A DNA stretch of 64,000 nucleotides from Chiloscyllium plagiosum (Eukaryota), in NCBI RefSeq assembly GCF_004010195.1, contig NC_057718.1, positions 101,637,463-101,701,462 on the forward strand. The letters are read 5' to 3'. This document shows positions 21,394-57,068 of the stretch, piece by piece (position 1 is the stretch's first letter; every line of letters begins with the position of its first letter). A program made the translations under genes and the position numbers. The notes below the pieces were generated by a model. It had not been told where the DNA came from and ran no database searches. It worked only from the letters and a program-made list of their open reading frames with translations.

Positions 21394-21527
21394 TGAGCCC
21401 TTCTTCAGGGATTCCTGAAGAAGGGCTCATGCCCGAAACGTCGATTCTCCTGCTCCTTGGATGCTGCCTGACCTGCTGCGTTTTTCCAGCAACACATCTG
21501 ATCTCCAGCATCTGCAGTCCTCACTTT
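21394..21527 (+). mobile_element. Short Penelope-derived (MER6-like) element with 14-bp TSD
   Basis: TSD CACTTGAAAGAGTA at 21380-21393 and 21528-21541; body gctgcctgacctgctg...tctccagcatctgcagtcctcac. Confidence 0.8.
21408..21449 (+). ncRNA. Minimal type I hammerhead ribozyme motif (family A)
   Basis: gggattc-CTGAAGA-a-GGGC tcat GCCC-GAAA-C-GTC-gattctc: intact core, stem II, stem I with one mismatch. Confidence 0.75.
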
Positions 21528-21577
21528 CACTTGAAAGAGTAGTTTATTTCATAACTCTATTAATTCACAGGATTTCG

Positions 21578-21905
21578 ATTAGATTAGAATACCTACAGTG
21601 TGGAAACAGACCATTCGGCCCAACAAGTCCACACCAACCCTCCGAAGAGCAACCCACCCAGACCCATTCCCCTACATTTACCCCTGACTAATGCATCTAG
21701 CATTACGAGCAATTTGGCATGGCTAATTCACCTGACCTGCACATCTTTGGACTGTGGGAAGAAACCCGAGCACCCGGAGGAAACACATGCAGGCACGGGG
21801 AGAATGTGCGAACTCCACACAGACAGCCGCCTGAGGCTGGAATTGAACCTGGGACCCTGGTGCTGTGAGGCAGCAGTGCTAACCACTGAGCCACCTTGCT
21901 GCCCC
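21578..21905 (-). mobile_element. HE1-type V-SINE
   Basis: Complete head, V-domain and (tctaa)n tail on the minus strand. Confidence 0.92.
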
Positions 21906-22182
21906 AGTGACAACCACTGGCAAGGCCAGCGTTCCTTGCCTGTTGCTAATTTGCCTTGAGAAGGTGAGTGATGGGCCTTTGAACATCTCATCCAAAAGAC
22001 AGCTGTTTCAACTCCCTCACAGGGAATGGGAGCTTTGGATCTTTATGCTCCAGCCTCAGGGCTGGACTTGAATTCACCATTTTTACAGCTCAGATATGAG
22101 TGAGCCATGGTTAGCAGCATAGATACTGCCTGAGCAATCCAGGTGAGGTCTGCTGCTGGACAATGAACAATAATCCAACTAA

Positions 22183-22394
22183 GAGAAAGTGGGACTGCAG
22201 ATGCTGGAGATCAGAGTCAAAAAATGTGGTGCTGAGAAAGCACAACCGGTCAGGCAGCATCTGAGGAGCAGGAGAGTCAATAATTCGAAGATAAGCATCA
22301 CATTCCTGATGAAGAGCTGATACTCAAAACGTCGAATCTCCTGCTCCTCGGATGCTGCCTATCCTGCTGTGCTTTTCCAGCACCACACCTTTTG
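22183..22394. mobile_element. Fold-back Penelope-derived element with degenerate hammerhead and 16-bp TSD
   Basis: Inverted arms; attcCTGATGAagagctgatactcAAAACGTCgaat; TSD acaataatcca(a/g)ctaa at 22167-22182 and 22395-22410. Confidence 0.75.
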
Positions 22395-24036
22395 ACAATA
22401 ATCCAGCTAATATCAGTCAGTGCCCTCGAGAATGCAAAGGAAGATAAAATCAATTCATTTTCAAATGGAGAACCATTAAAAGGAAGCTGAGAATATGGTC
22501 TCTTTGCCTAAAGATGAAGCTTGTAGAAGACCGATATTATGTAAGATAGCTGACTTGTTAGGGTCAACTCAGTAGTTCCAGTCACTGATTCTTAAGTTAC
22601 TTTATGGGAGAAGCTAATCCGTTCTGGTTGTTATTACTCAATTCTACAGTCTGTGATTATGTAGCATAGACTAATCAAGGTACTATACCTGCAGAGTTAA
22701 CAATGTCTCTTACCGAGTGTGGATGTTAGTCAACCAGTCTAATTTGAACCAAGGTCAAAAATCACACGACAGCAGGTTATAGTCCAACAGGTCTGTCGTG
22801 TTGTGTGATTTTTGATCTTGTCCAACCCAGTCCAACCTGGCACCCAGTCCAACCCAACCTGGCACCTCCACATAATGTGAAACAAAAACTGAAATTGCTG
22901 GAGAAACTGTTCTGGCAGCATCTGTAAAGAATAACAGAGTTAATGTTTGGAGTCCTGTGGCCCTTCATCAGAACAGTCTGGGTCTCCAGGCTCTCTGGTT
23001 CTCCTTACTGGGTCTGGCCGACATGTGACTCCAGATTTATAGCAATGACTCTTAACAGCCCTCTGGGCCATTAGGGATGGGTAGTACCTGGGTGCCCAGC
23101 CAGTGATGCCCACATCCTGTAAATGATTTTTTAAAAAAATCTGCCCCAAAAGGCCTTAGTAGAACCAACTACAGGCATCTCAACAATCTGTTTTAATTGG
23201 ACTGTTTTCTCCTCTCTGGTTATTAAACTTAATGTTGAAATACCCACATGGAATGAAGACAAACAATGGAAATGTTTTACACTGTGATGGTTATTTGTGA
23301 AAAAGGTCAAAAACGCTTCAAACTTGGCATTGTCAGCTAATTGAACAACAACAACTTACATTACTGTGTCACCTTTACAGAGTAAGGTGTCCCAAGGTGC
23401 TTCATGGCAGTGTGAATGATCAAAATTTGAAATGGATTCATACAAGGAGATGGTAGAACAAAGACTTTCTCAATCAGTAGATCTTAGTAGCTTCTTATAA
23501 GAGGAGGAAGGAGTAGGGGGGTTGAGGAAGTCACTTCCAGAGTTTTAGTCCTGGATAGCTGAAGGCATGATGCGTTCCATCAGAGACATGCAAGGGGCCA
23601 GAATTTGAGGAGTGGGCTGATCTCACAGGTTGTGGGAGCTGGAGGGAATTGCAAGAGGGATTTCAGAACAAAAACATTAAACTGTTATTAACTGATACCT
23701 ATGGGGCCAGGCTGGTTGATCAAATATTCCAGATCATCAAGGGGTACGCATAATCACAGTAAGCCCTGACCCAAGAGAAGCTTCACGATGTTGCAAGAAT
23801 TAGAATTAGATTTATTGTTACCTGTATTCAAGTTAAAAAAGGATAGGTGTACAGTGAAAAGTATACAATGTCGCCTACACACAGCACCATCTTAGGTGCA
23901 AACTACCTAGGTACACAAAAAATAGAGAAAGTAAAGTAAAAATGTTACACTACATTACAGATAAAATAGTATAAGTCAGCAAAATAAGAAATAAAGCTAA
24001 AAGATAGATATTACAGTCTTTCTATAAGGGCTCTGA

Positions 24037-24450
24037 ATCTGACAAAGGAGCAGTGCTCCGAAAGCTTGTGATTTCAAGTAAACCTAAAAATCACACAGCA
24101 CTAAGTTATAGTCCAACAGGTTTATTTGGAATCACAAGCTTTTGGAGCGCTGCTCCTTCATCAGGTAACTGTGGAGCAGGACCATAAGACACAGAATTTA
24201 TAGCAAAAGATCACAGTGTCATGCAACTGAAGTGATTTATTGAACAAACCTAGATTGCTGTTCAATATCATTTCAGTTGCATGACACTGTGATCTTTTGC
24301 TATAAATTCTGTGTCTTATTGTTCTGCTCCACAGTTACCTGATGAAAGAGCAGCGCTCCAAAAGCTTGTGATTCCAAATAAACCTGTCGGATTATAACCT
24401 GGTGTTGTGTGACTTCCAGCCCAGTCCAACACCGGCACCTCCACATCATG
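24037..24450. mobile_element. Fold-back Penelope-derived element (family B), ~160-bp inverted arms, hammerhead-like motif in each arm
   Basis: About 24090-24247 is the reverse complement of about 24259-24412; cctgatgaa.gagcagcgctccaaaagcttgtg on both strands. Confidence 0.85.
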
Positions 24451-26334
24451 AACAAATTAAGTTGTCACAATGCTGTGACCTGTCTTACAGCCTGCCTAAT
24501 TCATAATTTTCAGATAACAAACACATCATGAATTTGTCCATGTATAAATTTCATCTCGTTTTAATGTTATGGCTCAAGGTGATTTCTGAAACACTAATCC
24601 TTCTGGATAGGCCCCAGAGTGAGAGATTTCAGGTGGAACTTTGTGCCTTGATAGATTGATACCACATTTAATAGAAAAGAGTTTAACCTTAGGAATCACT
24701 GCCACTGTATAATTGAGTTGATGATGCCCTTGATTCAGACAGGTTTACCATGCAGAAAAACGGCAGTGTTGTATGTGGGTTACTTCAATAGTGGTGGATC
24801 GCTGAATCTGGCTAGAGCAAAGGCTAATGTAGACTCACCTTACATTTTCTGATTTGAGAAACTGAAATCCCACAGGATTTACATCAGGGGAAGGAATGTT
24901 TCTTCACAGTTTATCGAGTCTCTTGCAGCCAAGTGCTGCTGTTTACGATAAATCTCAGGAACACAATTATGAACAGGAAAGGGTAATCCTTACATTCCCC
25001 ATAAATCCCAACCCCTTCTAATATCTTTGACCATTGAGGCTTCTAAAGAATTATTTGCCATAGTATATGCTGATTCAGAGTTAGGTCAGCATTAGTTCAT
25101 TCCAACAGTGGATTGGAGCAGTTCATCTGAAATGGCCCAGTAAGCCATTGTGGCAGCAGACAATAACTGATAGCTTTTAAAAAAAAATAGTTTCTTGTTG
25201 CTTCACAATATATTATTTTTAAAATTTTTTCATAGGATGTGGGTGTCACCAGTGTTTGTTGCCCTTTCCTTACTGCCCTTGAGCTGAGAGTGCACTCATC
25301 CATGTCAGAGGCTAGTTAATAGTCAACCCCATTGCTGTGGGTCTGGTGTCTGGTGTCACATGTAGGCCAGACCAGGTAAGTGCAGCAGATTTCCTTCCCT
25401 GAAAGACATGATTGAACCAAATTGATTTTTGCTATAATTGATAATAGTCAACATTGCTGATGCTAGCTAGCAATTCGGCCTGCCTTGTCTGTGCTAGCTC
25501 TCTGAAGAAGCAATGCACACAGCCATCACCCAGTTGCCCCACCCCCACGTATCTCAGCCCATTCATCCTTTACAGAGAAGGATCCAATTCCCTCTGGAAA
25601 GCCTTAGGTGAACTGGCCTCCAACAGAATCGCAGACAGGGCATTCCACTCCCTAACCGTCCACCTTGTGAAGATGTTTCTCCTTATGTCACCGACTTGCT
25701 GCTTTTGTAAATGAATGTAAATCAGTTCCCTCTGGCTTTTGCTCTCTGTTCCTTTCTCTCTCTTTCTTTCTCTCTCTCTCTAACTGGTCCTAGGTTTATG
25801 TGGAACAAATGGCATTTTTGTTGCCACTGACTTTAAGTTTCTACTAATCAATAAAATGAATTGCAGTTCCTGCCTGAATAAAATCACAGTTGTAAATGTA
25901 TTCAGACTAAATGGCAGCAAGTTAACAAGCCTTGCCCAACCGCTTAACTTTTATCAGTGTTTAGACCTTTAGGTCTGGAAATATAGCTGCAGTGCTATAG
26001 TAGACTTCGTGGTCCTTTCACCATACTTGGAAATGTTGTTTTATTCCTAAAGTTTGTGTAGGTTGTTAATTCTTTGTTAACTTTTCTGAATGTATTCTTA
26101 ATTTTATTGATACGTTACAATCATTAAAATTAATCACACTGAATCTCACTGACTGTGCTGCACAGAAACAGGCCATTCGGCCCCAGGGTCCCTGCTGGTG
26201 TTATGCTCCTCACAGCTTCCTCCTGCCATTTTTCCCCTAAACCCAATGAGAATATCCTCCGATTGAGATTTTCCTCAAATATCGGTTTCTAGCTTATCCT
26301 TAAATTCATCAATGCAACCCACTTGCACTATTCA

Positions 26335-27020
26335 CAAGAACTTAAAACCTAGGAGCAGGAGTAGGCCGCCTGGCCCCTTGATCCTGCTTCGCCATTCAAT
26401 AAGATCATGGCCGATCTTTTTGTGGACTCAGCTCCACTTACCCACCCGCTCACCATAACGCTTAATTCCTTTACTGTTCAAAAATCCATCGATCTTTACC
26501 TTAAAAACATTCAACGAGATCGCCTCAACTGCTTCCCTGGGCTGGGAATTCCACAGATTCACAACCCTCTGGGTGAAGAAGTTCCTCCTCAGCTCAGCCC
26601 TAAATCCGCTCCTCCTTATTTTGAGGCTCTGTCCAATAGTTCTAGTTTCACCCGCCAGTGGAAGCAACCTCTCTGCTTCTATTCCCTTCACAATTTTATA
26701 TGTTTTGATAAGATCCCCCCTCATTCTTCTAAATTCCAATGAGTATAGTCCCAGTCTACCCAATCTCTCCTCATAAGCCAACCCCCTCAACTCCAAAATC
26801 AACCCAGTGAACCTCCTCTGCACCCCCTCCAGAGCCAGGACAGCCTTTCTCAAGTAAGGAGACCAAAACTGCAGACAGTACTCCAGATGTGGCCTCACCA
26901 GCATAACCTCCCTGCTTTTAAACTCTATCCCTCGAGAAATGAAGGACAATATTTCATTTGCCTTCTTACTATCCTGCTACACCTGCAAACCAACTTTTTG
27001 TGATTCATGCACAAGGACAC
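26335..27020 (-). mobile_element. CR1 LINE 3' fragment
   Basis: 173-aa ORF 26428..26949: VRPHLEYCLQFWSPYLRKAVLALEGVQRRFT..RRNFFTQRVVNLWNS. Confidence 0.93.
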
Positions 27021-27314
27021 TACTGCACACTATAGCATTCACTGAGGAAATTCCACTCTCGAAGCATGATCAGGGTTAAGAGCTGCATTGTGAATTGCCT
27101 GTTGGAATTAAGAATGACCACGTTATACAGATGGCCCATAACACTGCTGTGCCCCAGCTGTGGGCAGAGGGTAGAGCTTCTGTTGAAAGCTCACAAGCAA
27201 AATGACTTTGCATGTTGCAAGGCAGGTAATGAGAATGACACAGCGTCTACAGAGATTCTGGATCAGTGGTGCTGGAAGAGCACAGCAGTTCAGGCAGCAT
27301 CCAAGGAGCAGCGA

Positions 27315-27350
27315 AATCGACGTTTCGGGCAAAAGCCCTTCATCAGAAAT
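27315..27350 (-). ncRNA. Hammerhead ribozyme motif (family A) in a Penelope-derived end
   Basis: Reverse complement attt-CTGATGA-a-GGGC tttt GCCC-GAAA-C-GTC-gatt; weak stem I. Confidence 0.65.
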
Positions 27351-27358
27351 AAAGGCAG

Positions 27359-27848
27359 GGGCGACTGGGATAGGGAGTGGGTGAGGGGGCTATGTGTTTG
27401 ACACTGGGATGTCCTGTGGGCGACTGGGATAGGGAGTGGGTGAGGGGGCTATGTGTTTGACACTGGGATGTCCTGTGGGCGACTGGGATAGGGAGTGGGT
27501 GAGGGGGCTATGTGTTTGACACTGGGATGTCCTGTGGGCGACTGGGATAGGGAGTGGGTGAGGGGGCTATGTGTTTGACACTGGGATGTCCTGTGGGCGA
27601 CTGGGATAGGGAGTGGGTGAGGGGGCTATGTGTTTGACACTGGGATGTCCTGTGGGCGACTGGGATAGGGAGTGGGTGAGGGGGCTATGTGTTTGACACT
27701 GGGATGTCCTGTGGGCGACTGGGATAGGGAGTGGGTGAGGGGGCTATGTGTTTGACACTGGGATGTCCTGTGGGCGACTGGGATAGGGAGTGGGTGAGGG
27801 GGCTATGTGTTTGACACTGGGATGTCCTGTGGGCGACTGGGATAGGGA
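27359..27848. repeat. 59-bp G-rich minisatellite, 8 full copies plus a partial copy, apparently identical
   Basis: Unit GGGCGACTGGGATAGGGAGTGGGTGAGGGGGCTATGTGTTTGACACTGGGATGTCCTGT, shifting 1 nt per 60-nt line. Confidence 0.97.
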
Positions 27849-28004
27849 GGTGGTCTAAATGCTGCAGCGTCTGGTTTTCTGATGGTTCTTCAGCACCGTC
27901 CCCACGTGTATGTGCATGGTGAGGTTGGTATTGTTGGGAATGGCCTTCCGTTTGCTTCAGGTATAGAGCTCTGTGTAGAGCAGAACTGAAAGTTACTGTC
28001 CTTG

Positions 28005-31000
28005 AACACAGAACAGTCCAGCACAGAATGGGCCCTTTAGCCCTCGATGTTGCACTGACCCGTGAACTAATCTGATGAGAACAGATCTAAGTCTCTTGGC
28101 CTTTCCTCAAAAGTCCTTCCCACCATACCAGGCAATATCCTGGTAAATCTCCTCTGCACCTTTTCCAATGCTTCCATATCCTTCCCAAAATATGGGGACA
28201 AGAACTGTACACAATATTTCAAGTGTGGCTGCACTAGCGTTTTGTATAGTTGCAGCATGATATTGTGGCTCTAGAACTCAATCCCTCTACCAATGAAACC
28301 TAATACACTGTATGCCTTCTTAACAGTACTATCCACCTGGGTGGCAAATTTCAGGGATCTATGTACATGGACTCCAAGATCCCTCTGCACATCCACACTA
28401 CCAAGAATCTTTCCATTGACCCAGTACTCTGCCTTCCTGTTATTTTTCCCAAAGTGCATCACCTCACATTTAGCCAAATTGAACTCCATTTGCCACCTCT
28501 CAGCCAATTCATGAGTTTATCCAAGTTCCCCAGCATCCTGTAACATTCTTCCACACTGTCCACTACTCAATCGACTTTAGTGTCGTTTGCAAATTTACTA
28601 ATCCATCCACCTATGGCTGCGTCTAAGTCATTTATAAAAATGACAAACAGCAGTGGTCCCAAAACATCTCCTTGTATCTCACCACTAGTAACCGGACTCC
28701 AGGCTGAATATGTTCCATCAACCAGCACTCGTTGCCTTCTTTCAGAAAGCCAGTTTCTAATCCAAACTGCTAAATCACCCTCAATTCCATGCCTCTGCAT
28801 TTTCTCCAACAGCCTACAATGTGGAACCTTATCAAAGGCTTTACTGAAGTCCATGTATACCACGTCAATTGCCCTACCCTCATCTACATGCTTGGTCACC
28901 TTCTCAAAAAAACTCAATGGGGTTTGTGAGACACGACCTGCCCTTGACGAAATCATGTTGACTATCTGAAATCAAATTGTTGTTTGCTAGGTGATTATAA
29001 ATCTTATCTCTTATAATCCTTCCCAAAACCTTTCGTGCAAGAAAGATAAGGCTCCCTGGTCTATAATTACCTGGGTCATCTCTACTGCTCTTCTTGAACA
29101 AGGGCACAACATTTGCAATCCTCCAGTCCTCTGGTACTAAACCTGTAGACAATGACAATTCAAATATCAAAGCCAAAGGCTCTGCTATCTTCTTCCTAGC
29201 TTCCCAGAGAATCCTCGGATAAATCCCATCCGGCCCAGGGAACTTGTCTACTTTCACTCCTTCTAGAATTGATAACACCTGTTCGTAACTAACCTCGATC
29301 CTTTCTAGTCTAATATCTCGTACCTCATTCTTCTCCTCTACAATATTCTCCTTTTCCTGAGTGAAAACCGATGAGAAATGTTCGTTTAGCANNNNNNNNN
29401 NNNNNNNNNNNNNNNNNNNNNNNNNNNNNNNNNNNNNNNNNNNNNNNNNNNNNNNNNNNNNNNNNNNNNNNNNNNNNNNNNNNNNNNNNNNNNNNNNNNN
29501 NNNNNNNNNNNNNNNNNNNNNNNNNNNNNNNNNNNNNNNNNNNNNNNNNNNNNNNNNNNNNNNNNNNNNNNNNNNNNNNNNNNNNNNNNNNNNNNNNNNN
29601 NNNNNNNNNNNNNNNNNNNNNNNNNNNNNNNNNNNNNNNNNNNNNNNNNNNNNNNNNNNNNNNNNNNNNNNNNNNNNNNNNNNNNNNNNNNNNNNNNNNN
29701 NNNNNNNNNNNNNNNNNNNNNNNNNNNNNNNNNNNNNNNNNNNNNNNNNNNNNNNNNNNNNNNNNNNNNNNNNNNNNNNNNNNNNNNNNNNNNNNNNNNN
29801 NNNNNNNNNNNNNNNNNNNNNNNNNNNNNNNNNNNNNNNNNNNNNNNNNNNNNNNNNNNNNNNNNNNNNNNNNNNNNNNNNNNNNNNNNNNNNNNNNNNN
29901 NNNNNNNNNNNNNNNNNNNNNTAATCCTCTCTTCCACCTCCCTGGAACTCTGCGGAGTCCTATAAAAAACTTCAAGCTGTGTGACCTCTCCCCTCCTGTT
30001 TCTAACCTCAACCCACACTACCTCAGTAGACGAGTCCTCATCAAAGGTTCTCTCAGCCACCCTTATACCATCCTTGACTAACAAGGCCACACCTCCCCTT
30101 CTTTTACCGCCTTGCCTGTTCTTAATGAAAGATCTAAACCCTGGAATCTGCAACATCCATTCCTCACCCTGCTCTATCCATGTCTCCGAAATCGTCACAA
30201 CATCCAAGTCCCAGGTACCTATCCATGCTGCAAGCTCATCTACCTTATTTTGGATACTTCTGGCGTTGAAGTAGACACGCCTCAAACGACTTCGCTGTCT
30301 GTCAGCATATTCCTGTGACCCTGAAATCCTGCCCCTGTCCTTCCTATTCTCATCTTCCTGTGCACTGCAACTACACCTCCGGTTCCCATCCCCCTGCTGA
30401 GCTAGTTTGAACCCACCCGAATAGCACCAGCAAATTTCCCACCCAGGATATTAGTACCCCTCTGGTTCAAGTGAAGAACATCCTGTTTGTACAAGTCCCA
30501 CCTTCCCCAGAATGAGCCCCAATTATCCAAGTACTTGTAACCCTCCCTCCTGCAACATCCCTGTTCAGCTGGTATCTCTCCCTATTCCTTGCCTCGCTAT
30601 CATGTGGCATGGGCAACAAACCAGAGATAACAACTCTGTTTGTTCTAGCTCTCAGCTTCCACCCTAGCTCCCTGAAATCCTGCCTTACATCCCTATCCCT
30701 CTTTCTACCTATGTCGTTGGTACCTACATGGACAACGACTTGGGGCTGGTCACCCTCTCCCTTCAGGACCCTAAAGACACGATCCGAGACATCACGGACC
30801 CTGGTACCCGGGAGGAAACACACCAACCGCGAGTCTCGTTCGTTCCCAAGAAACCTTCTGTCTGAGCCTCTAACCATCGAGTCCCCAATGACTAACACTC
30901 TCCTCTTTTCCCTCCTTCCCTTCTGTGCAACAGGGACAGGCTCTGTGCCAGACACCTAGGCCCCACTGCATACCCCTGGTAAATCGTCCCCCTCAACAGT

Positions 31001-31340
31001 CTCCAAAATGGTATGCATGTTTTTCAAGGGAATGACCCCAAGAGATCCCTCCACTGACTGTTTTTTTTCCTCTTCGAACAGTTACCCAGTTTTCTCCGTG
31101 TCTAGGAGTCACGACTTCCCTGTAACTCTTATCTATCGCATCCTCTACCTCCCGAATGATCCGAAGTTCATCCAGCTCCTGCTCCAGTTCCCTAACACGA
31201 TCTTGGAGGAGCGAGAGTTGGGTGCACTTCCTGAAGATGTACTTGGATGGGACATCAATGCTGTCCCCCACCTCAAACATCATGCAGGAGGAACATTGCT
31301 CTCCCTGCACTGCCATCCCTGCTCGTCCCCTTATCACAAA
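28005..31340 (-). mobile_element. Near-full-length, inactivated CR1/HER1-type LINE (ORF1 zinc-finger/coiled-coil + esterase; ORF2 APE + RT)
   Basis: ORF1: CSSCMMFE..RKCTQLSLLQDRVRELEQELDEL, VIGDSMVR, HVGTNDIG. ORF2: VYFNARSI, PGPDGIYPRIL, YMDFSKAFDKV, QGDVLGPLLF, KFANDTK (catalytic D to N). Multiple stops and frameshifts. Confidence 0.95.
29392..29921. other. Assembly gap (530 N) inside CR1 ORF2
   Basis: Run of N. Confidence 1.
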
Positions 31341-31374
31341 GTAAAAATGAAGAGACGCTTACTTATATGTAATC

Positions 31375-35068: not shown

Positions 35069-35104
35069 AGTCCTGATGAAGGGCTTTTGCCCGAAACGTC
35101 GATT
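35069..35104 (+). ncRNA. Hammerhead ribozyme motif (family A) in a Penelope 3' remnant (about 34880-35175)
   Basis: agtc-CTGATGA-a-GGGC tttt GCCC-GAAA-C-GTC-gatt; all core positions intact. Confidence 0.75.
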
Positions 35105-44355: not shown

Positions 44356-44404
44356 CACAGGTACGCAACACAGGTACGCGACACAGGTACACAACACAGG
44401 TACA
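44356..44404. repeat. 13-bp tandem repeat, about 3.7 copies (ACACAGGTACRCR)
   Basis: acacaggtacgca acacaggtacgcg acacaggtacaca acacaggtac. Confidence 0.85.
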
Positions 44405-45565: not shown

Positions 45566-47589
45566 CTTATAGTTGTTGCATCTTGACTGAGAGCAGATTT
45601 TTATTTGAGATTTATTAATAAGCTAAAGTTAAATATCACAAATGCCAGGAGGGGTCTTGAATTCCAGTCTTCGAACTTAACCTACAGTACCATAACAATT
45701 AATTACAATTATTACAGAGAGACAACTAGTGGTGGGTTATCCTGGGGGGTGGGGGGGGGGTGGTCACCACACCTCAGCTGAGGGGAGATGTTGAGAAGGA
45801 GAGTCCTTCATGGGAACCCCAGCTAGTGTGGGAATTGAACCTGCATCATTGTCAATCATTCTGTGTCACAAACCAGCTGTCCAAACTAACCAAACACCAC
45901 ACCATATTGTGTTATCAATATCCAACCTGTACAGGGGCCTAAACAAAACTCAGGGCTTGAAATCTTGATCCAAATATTTCTTTAAGCCAGTACGCTGGAA
46001 CTAACTTTCCAGTTACTCCTCTGTAAAACGTGAAACTATATAACTCAGAACATTTTGTTCATTGTGTGATATATTTAATGCACTTATATTATTATAAAAG
46101 CATGTCTTTGGTAGCGATTAATTGCCAAGAACATGGGAGTTAAGGTATTTGCCTTACATTTTAAGATTCTGGGATTCAATCAGTTCAAGAGCCACAGACA
46201 GTGTTGATGAATTAAAATTAGCTTTATTGTCCATGTACTCAAATGAGTGACAGTGAAAAGTTTACAAGTCGCCACTTGCAGCACCATCTTAGGTACAAAA
46301 ATACCTCAGTACAACTTCTTCAGTTACAAGATCTTAGAAAACAGAGAAATAGAAAGTCCAGAATTACAGAAATAAGAACTCAGAGACACGGTCTTTCACC
46401 CCAGAGCACACTGGTACCTGGTCTCCAGTCTGCACTGGGCCTTGGCACCAGACCGTGCCGGGCTTCAGTTTGAAGTTCATGGGATTGGGAGATCACACTC
46501 TGGAATCACCTCGAGTACTGTCACTTTGGAACTCTCAAGTAAAGTGATGAGCTAAGTTCCATCTTGCAAGGAATAACCCACACACTGCCCTGTTTCAGCA
46601 ACTACGGAAATAACCGCAGCTGTTAACAAATCCGATAACGTACCCAAACGTAGCCTATGGTGACCAGCTTTGTGCCCAATGCTGCTTTATCTACCTCTTT
46701 GTTTAATACAAATCACAACTAGATCCTTGTCTCCAAGTCAACTTGGGATTTCTTTTGTGGCTGATTGCGTACAGCAGGATTACACTTTCGGTAAATAAGC
46801 ATCGAGATAATTAAATGTGAATGTGATTGATGGGTACTTCCTACTTATTTAGAAAAAACAGTCACTCTGGGAGCAGGTACTCCAAGCCCTGCCTTTCAGC
46901 TGTGCCCCACATGCTGACGGTTTCACTAAACTGATAATTAAAAGAATCCCAGGTACTGAGTGCCATTTCTCCTCTCTTTCTCTTTGGTTCCATTGTTTGC
47001 TCATTGGCATGGTGAGCAGATGGTCAGAGATTTTAGCCTTTCAAAGCTGCAGGGCTTTCCCATGACATCAAGCTGGTCTTAGTGTTGTGCAATTAGATTG
47101 GGGCTTTCAGACTCCACAGGGATTGACTAAAGACCTGAGTAATTTCAATAAAGATTTGTAAAGGGAATCTTGTAAGGCCAGTCAAAGCCATTCGAGGGAA
47201 CAATGCCAGCAAACGTAGTAGGTCCCTTTCTTGTTTTAATCTGGGGAATATTGATGATGAACCCTCTGCCTATTTAGTGTAGCTGTGGTCGGAGGTATTT
47301 AATAGGAGGCCACTTCCCTCCAGGCCAGGTCATAGGTCACTGTTTAATTGATTAGGAATTTACAAGCCTATCCACACACCTTCAGGCAATGGGAAAGCAA
47401 ACAGATTGGTTGAACTTTATTTTTTCCGCAATTAGTGTGTTGATTCTCAGAGTCAAATTCTGCATGTTTCCAGCATTGAATGTAGTCCTCGGAAACCGAG
47501 AAGCATTTTTGCTTCAGAAATTTCAAAAGAAGTCAAGAGTGTAAAGCACAGCAAAGTGGAAGAACTGGCTATTTCCATCATGACAAAAT

Positions 47590-48955
47590 GTTCAATGCTG
47601 GTGTTAGAAACAGTGGGACAATTCTAAAGGGGATGCAGGAGCAGAGGGACCCAGGTGTACACGTGCAGAGACCATTGAAGGTAGCACAACAGTGGGGAAA
47701 AGCAATAAATAGAGATTACAGCGGCTTCAATTTTATCAAAAGGAGCACCGGCTACAAGGGCAAGAGGTGACACTGAACTTGTAAAAACAATTGCTCTTTC
47801 CTTATTTTTCTGCTTGGTGCTGGGAACAGAAACAGGCCCTTCGGCCCACAACATGACACCAAACTAAATTAATCCCTTCTGCCTGCCCTTGGTCCATATC
47901 CATACATGCCTTGAATTTTTAACTTATTTCTTTAATTTTCTGCTTTATGCCTAAGATTTTGTTATAGGTACCCAGGATGACACCGGAAATGGTGACTTTG
48001 TACTGTACTCCTGTGTCCCTGTACTTGAGTACATATGACAATCAAACCTAATTCTGATTCTAGACCTCAGCTGGAGGGCTGTGTCCAGTTGTGGAAGTCA
48101 CATTATGGGAATGATGTGAATGCATTTGAGTACGTGCAGAAGTGATTAACAAGAATTGTTCCATAAATAAGAAATGTCAGCGATGAAGAAAGGTTGAAGA
48201 CGAGAAGAGAGTGGATAAAGGCTTTTAAAATCATGAGCAGTCTGGGCAGAGAGGGAGAGGCTGTTCCCATTCATTAAAAAAAACAATGAGGGGGCATAGA
48301 ATTAATAAAATCATAATCAGGCTTCACAACCCAGATAGGGAGAAACAGTTCCTGCTCGTAAAAAGAACAGGAATGAGGGCTAAAGTGATGTGCAAAAGTA
48401 GCAAAGATAATCTGATCGAAATCTTTTTCACCCAGCGAGTAGTTAGGGTGTGGAATGCACTGCCTGGAAATATAGTGGAGGCAGGTTCAACTGAGGCTAA
48501 CAAGAAGGCCATTAGTTATTTGGATAGAAATAGTGTAGACCAACATGGGAAAAAGACAGGAGATTGGTGCGAGATAATAGAGCCAGTGCAGATGTGGTGG
48601 GCTGAATGCCCTCTGTCTGCACGGTAACAATTCTGTGTGCACTTTCTCGAGAGTAGGGGACTATAAAACTCGAGGACATAGGTTTAAGGTGAGAGTGGAA
48701 AGATTTAAAAGGATCCTAAGGGGCAACTTTCTCACACAGAGGGTGGTGCGTATATGGAATGAGCTGCCAGAGGAAGTGGTAGAGGATGGTACAATTGCAG
48801 CATTTAAGAAGCATCTGGATGGGTATATGAGTTGGAAGGGTTTGGAGGGATATGGGCAAAATGCTGGCAATTGGGACTAGATTAATTTAGGATATCTGGT
48901 CAGCAAGGATGAGTTGGATCAAAGGGTCAGTTTCTGTGCTGTACACTTCTCTGAT
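47590..48955 (+). mobile_element. Cluster of decayed CR1 fragments with nested LINE tails; younger 3' end at 48640-48955
   Basis: KTRGHRFKVRVERFKRILRGNFLTQRVVRIWNELPEEVV; FFTQRVVRVWNALP. Confidence 0.8.
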
Positions 48956-49963
48956 TTTAAACAAGGAACCACCCACCAAAATGTAAATCCATGCCATAGT
49001 CTTGTGTTTATATTATACCAAAACCATTGTATCACAGGAGCTTGGTCAAAGAGACAGACTTTAAGGAGCACACTTTAAGGGGGATAGAGGAGCACAGATG
49101 TTCAGGGAAGGAATTCCAGGGCTTAGGGGACAGCCAGCTAAATTCGAACTTTTTGTGACATATTTATAACTTATTTGAAGGTGTCAATTAGCACATCAAT
49201 GACTTTAGTGAGCAATGTTATCCATTTCAGCCTTGTTAATTTTAGACATGCATCTTTTACAAAAACATTGAAAAATGTGACATTCACTCCATTGAGTGTG
49301 TTTTTGGAAGGTCTAGCACTTGACCGCTTGTTCAGCACATCCCTCTGTCATTTTATTTTCTCCCCAGCTTCCCCCTGAAGGAATTTGCCCAATTCTCTTC
49401 TGAATGTTGCTATTGAATCTGCCTCCATTAGTCTTTCAGGCAGTGCATTCCAGATCACAACAACTCACTGAGTAAAAACTGTTTCCTCAGGTAGCCTCTG
49501 GCTGTTATTGTCAATCACCTGGATGGTGGATCATCAGGTTCTGATCCTCCTGCTACTGGGAACAGTTTCTCTGTATTTACTTTGTCACTGTACGGAATGC
49601 GAGTGTTGAGAGTTCAAGCTTCAATGTGCAGATCCCCGAAACCTATCAATCAGGTTGTGTTTAATTTCTGTATTTGGTTCTTCTTCCTTCCCCTCAGCGT
49701 AGTGTTTTTGTTAAGAGTTATTTTATTTCCAAGGATGGCCTTTAAGAAGATTTTTCATGAAGAAGTAGCTGACACAGTTCCAATGGGTGTATTTATATCT
49801 GAATGTCAAGTCCCACATTTCAATGAGAAAGAAAAGTCTAACTGGAGGATGTGCTGCCTTCAATCTTTTGCACTCCCTGTTCAGTGAAACTGATGTATGA
49901 TGATGGGAGTTAGATTTGGAGTCAGCCATTGGGCCCCTCAAATGTTTTTGTAAATTCATTTTT

Positions 49964-50305
49964 AGGGTGGCATGGTGGCTCAGTGGTTAGTACTGCTGCC
50001 TCACAGCGCCAGGGACCCGGGTTTGATTCCACCCTTGGGCAATTGTCTGTGTGGAGTTTGCACATCCACCCTGTGTCTGTGTGGGTGTCCTCTGGGTGCT
50101 CCAGTTTCCTCCCACAGTCCTAAGATGTACAGGTTAGGGTAGACTGGCCATGCTAAATTGCCAATAAAGTGCAGGCTGTGTGGATTAACCATGGGAAATG
50201 CAGGGATAGGGTTGGGGGCTAGGTCTGGGTGGGATGCTCTTCAGAGGGTAGGTGTGGACTTGATGGGCCAAACGGCCTGTATCCACACTTTCGGGATTCT
50301 ATGAT
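49964..50305 (+). mobile_element. HE1-type V-SINE
   Basis: gggtggcatggtggctcagtggttag head, V-domain, gggattctatg tail. Confidence 0.92.
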
Positions 50306-50499
50306 TCACAGGACTTAGGCATTGCTACTTTGGCCAGCATTTATTACCCATTCCTAATTGGGTGGCAGTTCAGAGTCAACCACGTTGCTGTGTGTCTGGA
50401 GTCACGTGTAGGCCAGACCAGGTAAGGACGGCAGATTTCCTTCCCCAAAGGACATTATTGAGACAGGTGTTTTTTTTTATACAATTGACAAGTCAACAT

Positions 50500-51290
50500 T
50501 GAGTCATAGAGATATACAATGTTGTAATTGTACCAGCCTCCACTACTTCCTCTGGCAGCTCATCCCATACACACACCACCCTCTGAGTGAAAAAGTTGTC
50601 ACTTAGGTCCCTTTTATATCCTTCCCCTCTCACCCTAAATCTATGCCCTGTAGTTCTGGACTCCCCCACCCCAGGGAAAAAAACCTTGTTTATTTACCCT
50701 ATCCATGCTCCTCATGATTTTATAAATCCTCTCCAAGGTCACCCCTCAGCCTTCAACGCTCCAGGGAAAACAGCCCCAGCTTATTCAGCCTCTCCCTACA
50801 GCTCAAACATTCCAACTCTGGCAACATCTTTGTAAATCTTTTCTGAACCCTTTTAAGTTTCACAACATCCTTCCGATAGGAAGGAGACCAGAATTGCACA
50901 CAATATTCCAAAAGTGGCCTAACCAGCATCCTGTACAGCCGCAACATGACCTCCCAACTCCTGTACTCAATGCACTAACCAATAAAGGAAAGCATGCCAA
51001 ACACCTTCTTCACTATCCTATCTACCTGCGACTCCACTCCAAGGTCTTTTTGTTCAGCAACACTCCCTAGGACCTTACCATTAGGTGTATAAGTCCTGCT
51101 AAGATTTGCTTTCCCAAAATGCAGCACCTCACATTTATTTAAATTAAACTCCATCTGCCACTCAGCCTATTGACCTATCTGATCAAGATCCTGTTGTAAT
51201 CTGAGGTAATCCTCTTCGCTGTGTGTTACACCTCCAATAAAGGGGTCATCTGCAAACTTACTTACTTTACCTCCGATGTTCATATCCAGT
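50500..51290 (-). mobile_element. CR1 3' fragment
   Basis: MLRLYRMLVRPLLEYCVQFWSPSYRKDVVKLKRVQKRFTKML; gtttgcagatgac (FADD) at about 51245-51257 on the minus strand. Confidence 0.92.
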
Positions 51291-53477
51291 CAGTTCCAGA
51301 TTTCTGAATAGGGATGGGAATAAATGCTGGCCAGCCAGCGATGCCCACATCCCACTTTTTTTAAAACTTAAGTTACATTAGCTCCCGTGGTAAGATTGGA
51401 AAGTATTAGACTAGAGCTCAGGATTCTTCACCCAGTACCATTCCCATTATAGCACCACCTCGACAAAAATCAGACCAAATTGTGACAGAGTATCAGGAGG
51501 TTGATCATGAAGAAAGTTACTTGGAGATTTAATTATTGTGATAAACAATCCTATCAGTCACTCTGCAACCCATTAAGTTCCCACATGTAGTAAAGCTCCA
51601 GTCGTCTTTTTTGGGAATGTTAATTGCGGGATAATTGTTGAAGACGATGAATAACCGCCTGCCATGGTGGGATTCGAACCCAGAACATTACCCGGGTCTC
51701 TGGATTAATGGTCTAGTGAAAACATCACTAGGACATAGTCTCCTCTGCCATTCATTCAGATCAAGGCTGAGACTGCCTCAACTCCACTTTGACACCCTAC
51801 CCCTTGATTTCCTTAGTATCTAAAATATAAATACAAGGGTTTGTATTCTGTGGAATTGTGAAGAAATTGCAACACAGAAACAGGCCATTCATTCCAACCA
51901 TTCCATCTACTGTTTGTGGTCCACTTGAGTATTGTCCCACATTATTATATCCAATGCCTTTAGCATTACTCTGTCAGGATGTTTTACTCCCAGTCTGATG
52001 CATGCTGGACTTGTCCTCGGAAATGCTTTTGGTGCTGGATATATGTTCAGCCTCTAGTTGAGTGACAGCATATTTGGGAAGTTTCAAATAGATACATCAG
52101 CACTTGAGAAAATAATAAGATGCATTGATATTTTCTAATCAGTGATGTTACTACACACATCAGAAGCAGATGGGTCTTGACTCCGGGCCTCCTGGCTCAG
52201 AGGCATTACCGCTGCACCACAATAGCAATGCAGTGCATGTCCAATACTTTGTATTGTGTCTCATTTGCTACAGAATTAGTGTGTGAAAGTTCTGTTGGAA
52301 TACCAGGATTTGCATAAATACATTAAAAAAGATGATGAGAAGTTCAATTGTGGTTTCAAATGGGTCAGATTATATGCAATTTTTGATAGTTCAGTATTCT
52401 AATGATGATATCATTTTCTAATTACTTTATACCTACTCACTTATATCATTAAGACTCCACTTGCAATCTCTCTCAAGTGGTTGATTTAGTCTTTCCAAAC
52501 CCTCTTCATAGTCTTTTTCTAATTATCTTTCACTTGTGCTATTTAATTGCCACTCTGCTTGCTACTGGAACCAATATGTCACTACCTTCATTATCACACA
52601 TAATGTTCCATTGATTTAGAGGCCACCCCTTAACCTTTGAGGCTTTTGTGAAAAAAAAGCCCCAGTTCTTGAGTTTTTCTCTCTCTCTCTCTCTCTCTGT
52701 GCAGTGTTACATCTCTGCTGCTGCCAATTGAAGCAATGCTGCTCTTTTCCCCAGTGGTTTCACATTCTCCTGATAATTATGTGCCCAAAACTGTCTAAGG
52801 TTTGAAGCTCACTTGTCATCTAAGGTTTTGTAAAAATTCAGTGGGAGCTTCTTGTTCCTTCTGTACAATGCCTCAGAATGTCAACCCAGTATTCCCATTG
52901 GCTATAATGTGAACATTACCCAAGCTATGCTGCCAGGATTTCCAAGTATCTTTCGTAATCCATGAGGAAGAGTATTGGTTACAGCATATTACCCTCTCAT
53001 TGTGCTTCCCAAATTTTGAATTGAACCATTTCTCTGTATCTGCCTTCTACCTTCCTGCCCTGTATGATCTTTTTGTCATGGTGTTGTCACTCACTTACTT
53101 TGATGACTGCTGTGTGCAGTTTCATTGAGCGTCTCTGTCAGGGCAGAAGGCTTTTCATTTTCCCCCTTTTCATCAGGTCAACGGGATCCCTCACAAATGG
53201 CTCTCTGACCATACACCATGCTGCCAACATGTATAAATATCACAAGCGGGTTCTGGCAGTTTTAGACAGACAAGGACTGGTCATCATACTAATGCAAACT
53301 GGTGAACATTTCACAAATTGCACACTATGCAAAAACCTTGTTGAGTAGGAGATCACTAGACCTGTCTTCAGCCAGTCCCCAATTCTATGTGACCTGATAC
53401 CATCTGCCATTACTGATGAGACAGGCAACTTTAATACATAGCTGTTAATTCCTTATTCTACAAGGAGAAACAGACGA

Positions 53478-54005
53478 ACAGAACACAAGAACATTATAAC
53501 ACAGGGACAGGCCCGTTGGCCCACCATGTTGAGCTGAACATGACAACAAATTAAACTAATCTCTTCTGTCTGCCCTGAGTCTATATTGCTGTACTCCTTG
53601 CATATTCATGTGCTCATTTAAAAGCCCCTGAAATGCCCCTATTGTATCTGTCTCCACCACCACCCCCAGCATTCCAGCCTCCTACCACTCTCTGTGTAAA
53701 AAAGCTGCCCCTCACATCTCCTTTGAACTGCCTCCTCTCACCTTAAATGCATGCCCACTAGTATTAGACATTTCAACTGTGGGAAAAAGGTTCTGACTAT
53801 CAACCCTATCTATGCATCTCATAATTTTCGAGAAATCTGCCAAGTCTCCACTCAGCTCCACTGCTCCAGAGAAACAACTTGAGTTTTGCTAGCCTTTTCT
53901 TACAGCTTACACCCTCTAAAGCAGGCAGCATTCTGGTCAACCTGTTCTGCACCCTCTCCAAAGCCAACACATCCTTCCTGTAATGGGGCGACCAGAACTG
54001 AACGC
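53478..54005 (-). mobile_element. CR1 3' fragment
   Basis: VQFWSPHYRKDVLALERVQNRLTRMLP and a tgttct-type tail. Confidence 0.88.
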
Positions 54006-55302
54006 CAATTGAACGATTAACTTTATTCACCGAATAGTGTAAGGAAGAAAGCTTTGTCAGCATATCTCTCTTTTAAACAAGGTTTGAATTCTCAGGCTGC
54101 AGTGTAATTTGAAGATAAACAGTTGGTGAAATAACTGATCTCTAATTCCCTGTCCCTTTCCTTCAACGAGTGTACTTGTTTGTAACTGCTGGACTGTGCT
54201 CTATAATGCGATATAAAAAAACCTATAAAAATGGAAGCAGTTATGTTCTTCAATTATCCTCTGCCATTAACTCGTAAATTAGCATTTCTGATCTTACTTG
54301 TGAAGCTCATTATGTTGTGTTCGGTGCTTCCAAAGTGTTCCCTTGTTTTAGGGTGCCTAATTGGAGCACTTCATTAACCACAACCTTCATCAAAATAGGG
54401 CTTCATCCTCAATTTCCTTTCCACTATTTAATACAGTGTAACATCCTCCCTGTAGTATGATTGATGTCTTGATACTTCTCAGTTCAATCAAAAGTCATTC
54501 TGTTCATGCATTTTTCTCCACTTAAATTTAAGCTCTAGCCCCTTGATACTGTTTGATTAATATCACTCATCTTCTTTCACTTCCCTCTCTATTCTGTCTG
54601 GACCCAGATCAAATACTGACCCAGTTACAGCTTTGTGCTCTTACGCCATGCTTTTCCATTTAATTTGTGGCTCGAGACTCACTCAGATTCATTGACTTTG
54701 AAGTTATCTGTCTTGGCACGATAATGCATCATGCGCTTTCAGTGTATCAGGTTGAAGGTAGAGTCCCCATAGTCCTACCAGACCATAGAGCTGCCCTCCC
54801 ATTACTGAGAGATGGTTGGTGGTGGTTTAACCTGAAAGTCACCATTGCCTCAGGTGAAGGGAGACGCTGAGAAGGAGAGTCCTTCAGATGGTGTAGAAAT
54901 TGAACCCTCAGTTGGCTGATTTCAATGGAAGGGAAAATCTAGTTATCAGTTATATGAGGTTACTTTAATTGTCATTGAGCCCATCTCTCAGTTTTAGTAT
55001 CAGAGTGGATGAACTACAGGTTGATCTTGACTGGAAGATACACTTGAGTTTTGAACTTGTTGGAAATCCTACAAGTCAGTACAGCCTCTTTTATGGGAGT
55101 TATAGAGATGTACATTTTGAGGCAGTCTTTTGGGATTGAGGGTGACTTGGTTCCACTCTGGTTCAATGGGGTCTGAGATGAGATTGATTTCACCATTGGT
55201 CTTAATCGACAGGTGTAGGTGCAGTGCTGGAGGAGGTAGTTGGAAAAGCATTAGTCAAAGATGTGTTTTTTCTCACGCATTTTGTATTTTTATATATATA
55301 TA

Positions 55303-55905
55303 GAACACCAGGTTTATTTAGAAGTACTAGCTTTTGGAGCACTGATCCCTTCATCAGGTAACTAATGGGGCAGGATCATAAGACACAGAATTTATAGCAA
55401 AAGATCATAGTGTCATGCAACTGATACGATATATTGAACAAACCTAGATTACTGTTCAAGTCTTTTATCTTTTCGAATGGGTTGTGGGTAAATTCAGAAC
55501 TTCTTTCAAGTCATGGCACTATGATCATTTGCTATAAATTCTGTGTCTTATGATCCTGCCTCACTAGTTACCTAATGAAGGAGCAGTGCTCTGAAAGCTA
55601 GTGCTTCCAAATAAACCTAAAAATCATACAACATCAGGTTATAGTCCAACAGGTTTAATTGGAAGCACACTAGCTTTCGGAGCGATGCTCCTTCATCAGG
55701 TGATAGTCTAAGGAGCGTCGCTCCGAAAGCTAGTGTGCTTCCAATTAAACCTGTTGGACTATAACCTGATGTGTGATTTTTAACTTTGTACACCCCAGTC
55801 CAACACCGGCATCTCCAAATCATGCCAAATAAACCTGTTGGACTATAACCTTGTTTTGTGTGATTGTTAACTTTGTCCACCCCAGTCCAATACCGCATCT
55901 CCACA
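55303..55905. mobile_element. Nested fold-back Penelope-derived elements (family B): a younger copy at about 55618-55822 inside an older one
   Basis: Two sets of inverted arms; ccaaataaacct duplicated around the inner copy; intact minus-strand hammerhead at 55668-55702. Confidence 0.8.
55668..55702 (-). ncRNA. Hammerhead ribozyme motif (family B), intact core
   Basis: Reverse complement CAC-CTGATGA-a-GGAGC atc GCTCC-GAAA-G-CTA-GTG. Confidence 0.75.
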
Positions 55906-57033
55906 TCATAGAGACGTACAGCATGGAAACAGACCCTTCAGTCCAGCTTGTCCATTCTGACCAGATATCCCAACCTAATCTAGTCTCACCTGCCAGTACT
56001 CGGCCTATATCCCTCCAATCATTTCTTATTCATGTCATAACTGTCATCAATAAGCCTGAGTCTCAGGAGCAGCTACAAGATCCAAGTGATTCTCAGTCCA
56101 CCATTTTTAAATCAACCTGTCTGTTATGACACACAAGTTCTAGAGCAGGTGGGACTTGAACGGGTCTCCTGCCCCAAAGGTAGGAGCATTGACACGGCAC
56201 CACAAGAGTTCTCCAAATTGTCTGCACGCATACCTGTGATGGACTCCTTCACTTACACGTAATTCTCATTTATGAATTCATGATGTAAAATGTTCCTCTC
56301 TCATAAACTGCTATTAGGTTGATAAAAAAAAACATGCCTCTGGCCAGCTATTAAGTGGCTGATTATGAATTCTTTGCGGTGAAGCTGTTTAAAATAAAGG
56401 GGAAAGGCTTTCCATGAGGATAACGGACAAATGCCTTGGAAGTGCATCAAGGATTCATTCAATGACTCATTTCCAAACTGAAAAACGTTCTGTGGTCTAC
56501 CACAGGACAGCTCAAAGCGAGAGGTAAGAATGATTCCACTAATTAATTCTGACATTATAGATAATTCAGCAGCTGAACTCATCATCGCTACTAAAGTATC
56601 CACCTCAGGAAATATTGATGTACGTGTAAAACGTCGGATCCAATTTGCCGAAAAGTTTTCCAAAAGAAATGTAAAAATGCCAAAGTTTTGTCAGCAGCTA
56701 TGCCTCCAGAGTCCAGTAGATTTGATGCATTATGCACAGCACAGGTACTTCTGAAGTTGTTGCTAGAATAATGGGTAGGGAGAGAAGATAGATCACAAAG
56801 GTAATGTAATAAAAGAAAAACAGCCATGTTCAGGGAACAGCAAGATAGTCACAGAAAGTGAGAGACTGGTTTCATTGTTTAAAATTGTGATGGGTGAAAA
56901 AATGTTGTTGCACCCTGCTAGAAAGTAAGATCTTGCACTTAGATATGATGTGGAGGTGCCGGTGTTGGACTGGGGTGGACAAAGTTAAAAATTACACAAC
57001 ACCAGATTATAGTCCAACATGTTTATTTGAAAG

Positions 57034-57068
57034 CACTAGCTTTCGGAGCGCTGCTCCTTCATCAGGTG
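57034..57068 (-). ncRNA. Hammerhead ribozyme motif (family B), intact core
   Basis: Reverse complement CAC-CTGATGA-a-GGAGC agc GCTCC-GAAA-G-CTA-GTG. Confidence 0.75.

What the first reader, a model, noticed from the sequence alone, without database searches (positions are those of the whole stretch)
21408..57068. Dispersed minimal hammerhead ribozymes of at least three families on short Penelope-derived elements
Seen: the motif stemI-CTGANGA-N-stemII-GAAA-N-NTH-stemI' recurs with different but pairing-compatible helices. Family A (GGGC/GCCC, GAAAC-GTC) is at 21408+, 27315-, 35069+. Family B (GGAGC/GCTCC, GAAAG-CTA) is at 42209+, 55668-, 57034-. Family C (GTTACC/GGTGAC) is at 37893- and 38416+. 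Further decayed copies lie at about 22304, 22945, 24040, 24135, 24336, 35866, 39080, 55570 and 60531. Stem III is reduced to a palindrome (ACGT in A and C, AGCT in B, AAGCTT at 35888), and there is one extra base after A9. Established: Penelope-like elements carry such minimal type I hammerheads, which cleave best as dimers through the palindromic stem III. Inference: the plus-strand intact copies (21408, 35069, 42209) are sense in the host pre-mRNA, and the two family A copies lie in the same 31-kb intron, so they could in principle pair and cut it. The class is known, but these families and this intronic density may be unannotated.
Basis: partly seen in the sequence, partly recalled or inferred. 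Interest (0 to 1): 0.72.

Follow-up and report, generated by a model that had tools for sequence, protein, structure and literature searches.

The report
Decaying shark Penelope hammerhead end-pieces
The introns of a shark gene hold about twenty worn end-pieces of repeats, likely all from Penelope-type jumping genes, each with a miniature self-cutting RNA motif of a kind described in 2014; most copies are broken and they likely do not cut the gene's RNA, so this is real but largely ordinary.

Summary
Observation real: 7 strict minimal type I hammerhead hits against 0.02 expected; 21 recognisable cores in five families; predicted cuts as stated. Host: a + strand MACROD-like gene of a carpet shark; intron 6042-37684. 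Family C sits in a Penelope stub (inverted end, decayed GIY-YIG ORF end, end repeat), but neither C copy is intact. A, B and D are Penelope by anatomy only. The class is published (PMC4209133). Host-intron cutting by the two A copies is not supported: they lie 13.7 kb apart and 21415 is predicted locked in a 19-bp hairpin. Cores are not significantly better kept than flanks (17/198 vs 58/753); G12 is changed in 9 of 18 copies, mostly at a CpG. In poly(A) reads pooled over family B, dead G12A copies are not enriched on the sense strand (13.4% vs 11.8% antisense). Extra: family B carries a used poly(A) site 27-30 nt past the predicted cut. The scan found such shark hammerheads often before (77 notes), and this poly(A) site twice.

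The parts
21394..21527 (+). Family A insertion; intact core (C3 21415, predicted cut after 21442); inverted stub 21391-21409 pairs with 21414-21432; 14-bp target duplication at 21380 and 21528
22178..22394 (+). Family A inverted pair: minus-strand 3' part with long tail, then sense copy (C3 22306, G12A); 11-bp target duplication at 22167 and 22395
27253..27360 (-). Family A copy, intact core (C3 27346, cut after 27319), antisense to the host
35059..35175 (+). Family A copy, intact core (C3 35073, cut after 35100), 4-bp stem I
39068..39197 (+). Family A copy, decayed (C3 39083, G12A, stem II broken); 15-bp target duplication at 39053 and 39198
24036..24456 (.). Family B compound inverted insertion: 24039+ (G8A), 24164- (G12A), 24339+ (G12A)
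42155..42336 (+). Family B copy: inverted stub 42155-42193, intact core (C3 42212, cut after 42240), ATTAAA 42250-42255, family poly(A) positions 42267/42270, GU-rich stretch, tail to about 42334
55299..55910 (.). Family B tandem/inverted cluster: 55357- (G12A), 55572+ (G5A), 55699- (intact), 55710+ (5' truncated), 55825-55909+ (3' part)
56945..57071 (-). Family B copy, intact core (C3 57065, cut after 57037), antisense to the host
57394..57482 (+).
37852..37981 (-). Family C inverted pseudo-LTR (C3 37929; palindrome lost)
38014..38362 (+). Decayed 3' end of a PLE ORF (GIY-YIG region, with stops and a frameshift)
38368..38535 (+). Family C pseudo-LTR and tail (C3 38420; A13G); 9-bp target duplication at 37847 and 38536 frames the whole C unit
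22875..22973 (-). Family D copy (C3 22971, G12C)
35982..36084 (-). Family D copy, three core changes
39445..39552 (-). Family D copy, four core changes
41092..41180 (+). Family D copy, 5' truncated
60533..60638 (+). Family D copy, core letters intact (C3 60535) but stems too weak for the strict descriptor
35869..35894 (+). Single type E motif: core boxes and AAGCTT palindrome, no workable stems I and II
5955..62242 (+). Host MACROD-like gene, six small exons: 5955-6041, about 37685-37765, 40113-40178, 40971-41057, 59723-59767, 62189-62242
   Evidence: exon reads

Best explanation
These are 5'-truncated, mutating end-pieces of several repeat families, shown to be Penelope-like for family C and likely so for A, B and D, scattered through the introns of a shark MACROD-like gene; each carries a minimal hammerhead motif that likely served the parent element and is likely inert where it now lies. 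Mechanism. (1) Known for the class: an autonomous PLE is transcribed through tandem pseudo-LTRs, whose hammerheads cleave weakly as neighbouring dimers or with help from the element's protein. (2) Inferred from anatomy: copying starts near the 3' end and usually stops early, so the hammerhead-bearing end is what lands, often with an inverted stub and a 9-15 bp target duplication. (3) Shown: after landing the copies decay, the core not significantly slower than the flank, with G12 of the C11.1-G12 CpG hit hardest. (4) Shown for family B as a pool: its end holds a poly(A) signal 10 nt after the predicted cut, used in sense RNA, and those RNAs run uncut through the hammerhead.
For: Family C: inverted pLTR + ORF end + pLTR inside a 9-bp duplication; ORF end 81% identical to a zebra shark RT protein, best of 4 hits among 10 candidates; hits carry RVT_1, two a weak GIY-YIG. 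Target duplications of 14, 11, 15 and 9 bp at 4 of 16 spans tested; the other 12 gave <=8 bp. Inverted/tandem stubs in A and B match the published PLE insertion pattern (PMC8557442). A, B, C fit the published consensus CUGANGAH-G..C-GAAAN-palindrome-NUH. A family-A-type core lies behind an RT and GIY-YIG-like ORF remnant in L001. Decay: core 17/198 vs flank 58/753 changes, p=0.66; G12 9/18 vs other core 8/180. Genome-wide contig letters: G12A 14.8%, C11.1T 19.6%, loop CpG 17.5-22%, eight sampled non-CpG flank places 1.8-5%. RNA: G12A 255/1899 sense vs 40/338 antisense, p=0.49; no depth step at 42240 (2041 to 2050) and no pile-up of ends. Published: single motif inactive, dimers weak (PMC4209133); PAc hammerhead needs protein, no RNA-seq ends at its site (PMC11167929).
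Against: No ORF remnant touches any A, B or D copy in the window, so their PLE origin is inferred; the L001 match is a short motif and could be convergence. Without G12, core changes are 8/180 (4.4%) against 56/743 (7.5%) in non-CpG flank: lower, not significant (p=0.19), n small, and copies were recognised partly by their core. The RNA test is one poly(A) library, 2% of one run, pooled over many loci and skewed to some (a 2-nt insertion variant is 553/2416 reads but 0.1% of DNA depth); cut products would be too short or lack a tail, so the cut fraction cannot be read directly. Folding puts 35073 and 42212 only 2.4 and 1.0 kcal/mol from a hammerhead-ready fold, so slow cleavage is not excluded.
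Confidence: 0.87

Rival explanations
1. One reading: intact sense copies (21415 with 35073, or 42212 with a partner) pair through the palindrome in the MACROD-like pre-mRNA and cut it, affecting splicing or output.
For: 3 of the 7 strict hits are sense with intact core and palindrome; both A copies lie in intron 6042-37684; a cofold of the two 51-nt pieces joins the palindromic region (-32.7 kcal/mol), though not in a hammerhead-ready form; conserved intronic hammerheads exist in amniotes (PMC6155905).
Against: 13,658 nt apart; 21415 core predicted paired with probability 1.0 in a 19-bp hairpin; 2-bp stem I; the other sense copies near 42212 carry core changes; even adjacent dimers cleave poorly in vitro (PMC4209133); 1 of 9 Xenopus dimers cleaved (bioRxiv 2026.07.22.740005); no strand bias in reads on 34900-35156 (120.7 vs 123.2).
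Confidence: 0.03
2. Scattered intact copies are cut occasionally in trans, paired with any of the very many same-family RNAs in the nucleus or helped by the protein of a still active PLE; a general low-level turnover of pre-mRNA rather than a locus-specific switch.
For: Very deep family coverage in DNA contigs (millions of summed depth against about 15 at unique places; not a copy number); PAc hammerhead is protein-assisted (PMC11167929); 35073 and 42212 are near a ready fold.
Against: G12A copies are not enriched among sense family B reads; no end pile-up.
Confidence: 0.07
3. Families A, B, D are not PLE ends but independent short elements (SINE-like or retrozyme monomers) that carry a hammerhead.
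For: No ORF next to them in the window; target duplications at three A copies; non-LTR retrozyme monomers are described, also in one chondrichthyan (bioRxiv 2026.07.22.740005).
Against: No tandem arrays with one core per unit here; variable 5' truncation, inverted stubs and one-sided tails are PLE traits; the same preprint derives animal retrozymes from PLE pLTRs, so this is largely a difference of name.
Confidence: 0.03

Closest known systems
Minimal type I hammerheads (min-HHR) in pLTRs of metazoan Penelope-like elements (Cervera and De la Pena 2014, PMC4209133)
   Same: CUGANGA plus one extra base, G10.1-C11.1, GAAA, 4-nt palindrome in place of helix III, NUH, short helix I; several families per genome; mostly single scattered copies; opposite-strand pairs 100-700 bp apart.
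   Different: No shark term found in the 2 of 3 supplement files that could be searched; stem II of A is 4 bp, shorter than the 7-8 bp given for Schistosoma; poly(A) use next to the motif was not mentioned in the parts read.
Penelope/Poseidon-clade elements, e.g. PAc of Anolis (PMC11167929)
   Same: Family C: C-terminal GIY-YIG region followed by a pLTR with hammerhead; tail on one side; RT + GIY-YIG relatives in sharks.
   Different: Only the last ~115 codons survive here, broken; clade assigned by recalled resemblance (no cysteine linker before the nuclease), no tree built.
Non-LTR retrozymes of animals (bioRxiv 10.64898/2026.07.22.740005)
   Same: Type I hammerhead in PLE-related non-coding repeats; monomers dispersed; found in one chondrichthyan.
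   Different: Retrozymes are head-to-tail arrays with a core in each unit; none here.
Conserved intronic hammerheads of amniotes (RECK, CTCL/C10orf118, DTNB; PMC6155905)
   Same: Type I hammerhead in an intron.
   Different: Those are single conserved loci; these are repeat copies that decay like their flanks.

Membership tests
PLE minimal hammerhead (min-HHR) | Core boxes CUGANGA, GAAA, UH in type I order | tested here: met
   7 strict hits vs 0.02 expected; 14 of 21 cores fail through decay or weak stems
PLE minimal hammerhead (min-HHR) | Extra base between 9 and 10.1; G10.1-C11.1 pair | tested here: met
   All 7 strict hits; type E lacks it
PLE minimal hammerhead (min-HHR) | Palindrome in place of helix III | tested here: met
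   6 of 7 strict hits
PLE minimal hammerhead (min-HHR) | Different pairing-compatible stems I and II between families | tested here: met
   A, B, C differ in both stems with pairing kept; no formal covariation statistic was run
PLE minimal hammerhead (min-HHR) | Self-cleavage as dimer or with protein help | not testable with these tools
   No assay; poly(A) reads show no sign of cutting in family B
EN+ Penelope-like element | Motif in a pLTR behind an RT/GIY-YIG ORF (family C) | tested here: met
EN+ Penelope-like element | Motif in a pLTR behind an RT/GIY-YIG ORF (families A, B, D) | tested here: inconclusive
   No ORF remnant in the window; A-type core behind a PLE-like ORF in L001 only; no genome held
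EN+ Penelope-like element | 5' truncation, tandem/inverted ends, one-sided tail | tested here: met
   A 22178-22394, B 24036-24456, 42155-42336, 55299-55910, C 37852-38535
Non-LTR retrozyme | Head-to-tail array with a hammerhead in each unit | tested here: not met
   8 tandem rows; the only one in these elements (55741-55909) lacks the core
Domesticated intronic hammerhead | Core conserved above flank at the locus, across species | tested here: inconclusive
   No excess conservation among paralogous copies; orthologous loci not compared

The most novel reading that the evidence does not exclude
Family B ends are a mobile 'hammerhead then poly(A) site' cassette: the element's transcript would end 27-30 nt past the ribozyme, so cleavage would strip the tail, and the dispersed copies supply working poly(A) sites to many shark transcripts, some possibly switchable by hammerhead dimerisation or the PLE protein. 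Poly(A) use is shown for the family pool; tail removal and host use are untested.
Probability: 0.12. Interest if true: 0.55.

Novelty: new member of a known kind. Interest (0 to 1): 0.22.

Why it matters
Mostly as annotation: sharks carry several very abundant PLE end families with minimal hammerheads that Rfam misses. The reads give a small in vivo check that dispersed monomers are not cut appreciably, which explains how introns tolerate them. The family B poly(A) site would, if it is the element's own terminator, fix the 3' end of a PLE transcript relative to its hammerhead and tail, a poorly known part of PLE biology, and could be a source of intronic or 3' UTR polyadenylation in sharks.

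Tried and rejected
No whole genome was held, so no genome-wide count. Rfam at E<=5: 4 hits, all miRNA/lncRNA models on inverted repeats, none a hammerhead. Pfam on the two short ORF remnant pieces of family C: 0 families each; the identification rests on homologous proteins. The repeat finder was swamped by a 25-nt satellite. Metagenome scan for the family A core: 1 locus, not obviously shark. Run search: no RNA holder listed; run X22 laid 0 reads, no test. The 6041-37685 splice joint was not seen in reads, because the stretch laid did not contain both exons; the intron rests on two protein models. The family D indices were wrong, so its conservation counts were discarded and redone; two 5'-truncated copies (55703+, 41084+), both C copies and E were left out of that count (18 of 21 cores used). 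Some exon bounds guessed were off and replaced. Whether the 42212 locus itself is polyadenylated cannot be told: 33 of 3105 reads were >=99% alike, and the bin just upstream had zero depth. Luense et al. (PMC5785218) was not held; it is cited only through a review (PMC6765202). Literature searches for sharks plus hammerhead and for PLE polyadenylation (term search in PMC2377424) found no description of these families or of the poly(A) site; Repbase/Dfam, subscription journals, one supplement file of PMC4209133 and the preprint's supplementary tables were not seen and may list them. Chance occurrence rejected.
Full report
1. Observation. Strict hits: C3 at 21415+, 27346-, 35073+ (family A), 37929- (C), 42212+, 55699-, 57065- (B); 7 against a mean of 0.02 (maximum 1) in 100 dinucleotide shuffles. 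Predicted cuts follow 21442, 35100 and 42240. Self-BLAST and alignment raise the tally to 21 recognisable cores: A 5, B 9, C 2, D 4, E 1, plus truncated pieces. Fourteen of the 21 fail the strict descriptor. Neither C copy is whole (37929- lost the palindrome, 38420+ has A13G). Stem I is 2 contiguous pairs at 21415 and 27346. Rfam has no model that finds them.

2. Host. An exon at 40971-41057 retrieved a protein named 'ADP-ribose glycohydrolase MACROD1-like' of Chiloscyllium plagiosum and a C. punctatum relative (2 hits among 3 candidates; Macro domain). Its C-terminal part maps to six small + strand exons, five at 100% identity, so the window is from a carpet shark, likely that species. The intron 6042-37684 is 31,643 nt. 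Reads on the bins holding the exons at 40113 and 40971 are all of the orientation expected for + strand RNA (depth 1.9 and 1.65 against 0), and a 617-nt contig fits 40969-41060 only.

3. What the elements are. Family C (37852-38535) is an inverted end repeat, a broken ORF end and a direct end repeat inside a 9-bp target duplication. The ORF end, read with X at stops, is 81, 75 and 71% identical to three shark proteins and 69% to a 705-aa unnamed protein; of three of these scanned, all carry RVT_1 and two a weak GIY-YIG below the curated cut-off. One of them reads on through the same hammerhead region, so family C also exists in zebra shark. This is the truncated, inverted-end PLE insertion described in PMC8557442 (passages). 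A, B and D have no ORF remnant beside them. Their PLE origin is inferred from variable 5' truncation, inverted stubs, a tail on one side only (22178-22394), tandem/inverted clusters (24036-24456, 55299-55910) and target duplications of 14, 11 and 15 bp at three A copies (4 of 16 spans tested gave 9 bp or more). A scan of metagenome contigs for the A core gave one locus, L001, where the same core with a 5-bp stem I follows an RT-like (E 9e-7 to P0004) and GIY-YIG-like remnant; its cysteine linker recalls Neptune elements (recalled, not tested).

4. Known class. PMC4209133 (parts 1-2 of 4 of the text and part 2 of 3 of supplement 2 read) defines exactly this motif, including the extra base after A9 and the palindrome, reports about 4,000 and 9,000 copies in coelacanth and Xenopus, mostly single and scattered, and found a single motif inactive and dimers weak. 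PMC11167929 (parts 1-2 of 4) shows the Anolis PAc hammerhead cleaves only with protein and finds no RNA-seq ends at the site. bioRxiv 2026.07.22.740005 (parts 1-3 of 5) finds hammerhead retrozymes in one chondrichthyan, ties them to pLTRs, and saw cleavage in 1 of 9 dimers. PMC6765202 (passages and part 2 of section 11) and PMC6155905 (passages) were used for dimer cleavage and amniote intronic hammerheads. No paper describing these shark families turned up.

5. Are the scattered copies kept? No sign of it. In 18 copies of A, B and D, core positions differ in 17 of 198 cells and 3' flank in 58 of 753 (p=0.66). G12 is changed in 9 of 18, eight times to A, against 8 of 180 at other core places. 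G12 sits in a CpG, and DNA contigs laid on 42200-42345 show G12A at 14.8% and C11.1T at 19.6% of summed depth, like the loop CpG (22 and 17.5%) and above eight sampled non-CpG flank places (1.8-5%) (40 of 70 rows shown). This fits methyl-CpG decay after insertion (inference). Against my reading: non-G12 core is somewhat lower than non-CpG flank (4.4 vs 7.5%, p=0.19), and no other core position appears among the 40 rows shown. Conservation of the core between families with different stems points to selection in the parent elements.

6. Do they cut the host RNA? The proposed pair lies 13,658 nt apart. The 21415 copy arrived with an inverted stub that pairs with its core in a 19-bp hairpin; predicted pairing of CUGANGA is 1.0 and a hammerhead-ready fold costs 20.6 kcal/mol. 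The bare palindromic duplex is -1.7 kcal/mol. 35073 and 42212 are near a ready fold (2.4, 1.0 kcal/mol) but have no intact neighbour. In one poly(A) single-cell run (2% read), pooled over family B loci, sense depth does not step at the cut (2041 to 2050), and catalytically dead G12A copies are no more common in sense (255/1899) than antisense reads (40/338; p=0.49) or DNA. Efficient cutting would enrich them. No pile-up of ends was listed. Limits: the library cannot hold most cut products, and expression is skewed to some loci.

7. Extra finding. Family B has A(A/T)TAAA 10 nt after the predicted cut and a GU-rich stretch beyond. Sense depth falls from 2050 to 590 across 42265-42270 while antisense depth and DNA depth do not fall; 569 and 689 reads carry an A-run after 42267 and 42270 (first seen). 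These places are not among the six loose ends shown for each contig run (lists are cut, so this is weak). Median loose lengths (67 behind, 21 before, 62 laid, 150 in all) suggest the reads run from the tail through the uncut hammerhead into upstream element sequence. So the family's end works as a poly(A) site. Whether these are element or host transcripts is open. At 42212 itself the site is predicted paired with the inverted stub. Six of seven sense B pieces checked keep a hexamer, so cryptic intronic polyadenylation is a more plausible effect on the host than cutting (inference). Searches for PLE polyadenylation found no description; two earlier notes of this scan report the same site, seen after my own.

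8. Verdict. Real, well above chance, and a new member set of a published class; mostly decaying debris. The scan has noted shark PLE hammerheads many times (77 notes hold the search words). The intron-cutting idea is unlikely (about 3%). Interest 0.22.

Noticed in passing
window 24079-24093 and 55612-55626: Two separate family B clusters share the same junction: a sense copy stops just after the poly(A) hexamer and an inverted copy begins there. Either B inserts into its own end at a preferred site or a compound unit was copied.
   Followed up: no
window 60565-60592+, 39500-39525-, 22905-22935-: Family D has a pyrimidine tract and CAG directly before ATG, just 3' of the cut: looks like a splice acceptor or the start of the element ORF. 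Families A and D share the sequence after this point.
   Followed up: no
window 42240 (reads): A family B variant with a 2-nt insertion after the cut makes up 553 of 2416 RNA reads but about 0.1% of DNA depth; the same variant is at 55699- and 55710+. A small, highly expressed subfamily or a few loci.
   Followed up: partly
L001 1-2400: Decayed PLE-like element (RT, cysteine linker, GIY-YIG-like end) with an end repeat holding a family-A-type hammerhead core and ATTAAA about 20 nt after the predicted cut.
   Followed up: partly
window 7856-11182, 13572-13999, 27359-27849: Tandem arrays of 25 nt (133 copies), 36 nt (12) and 59 nt (8.3, 100% identical); the last abuts the 5' side of the family A copy at 27346-.
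   Followed up: no
window 28567-31391 and 32647-35775, minus strand: Decayed LINE pieces: RT (RVT_1, E 1e-11) and an esterase-like ORF1, with two assembly gaps (1,213 N in all).
   Followed up: partly
window 5955-62242: The MACROD-like gene's acidic tail, encoded by small exons, holds several SQ/TQ motifs; a long acidic tail recalls MACROD2 more than MACROD1 (recalled, not tested).
   Followed up: no
window 16182-16203 and 16305-16335: Two further faint family-B-like pieces (a minus-strand core-like box and a sense GAAAGCTAG stretch) about 120 nt apart, seen by eye, below the BLAST threshold.
   Followed up: no
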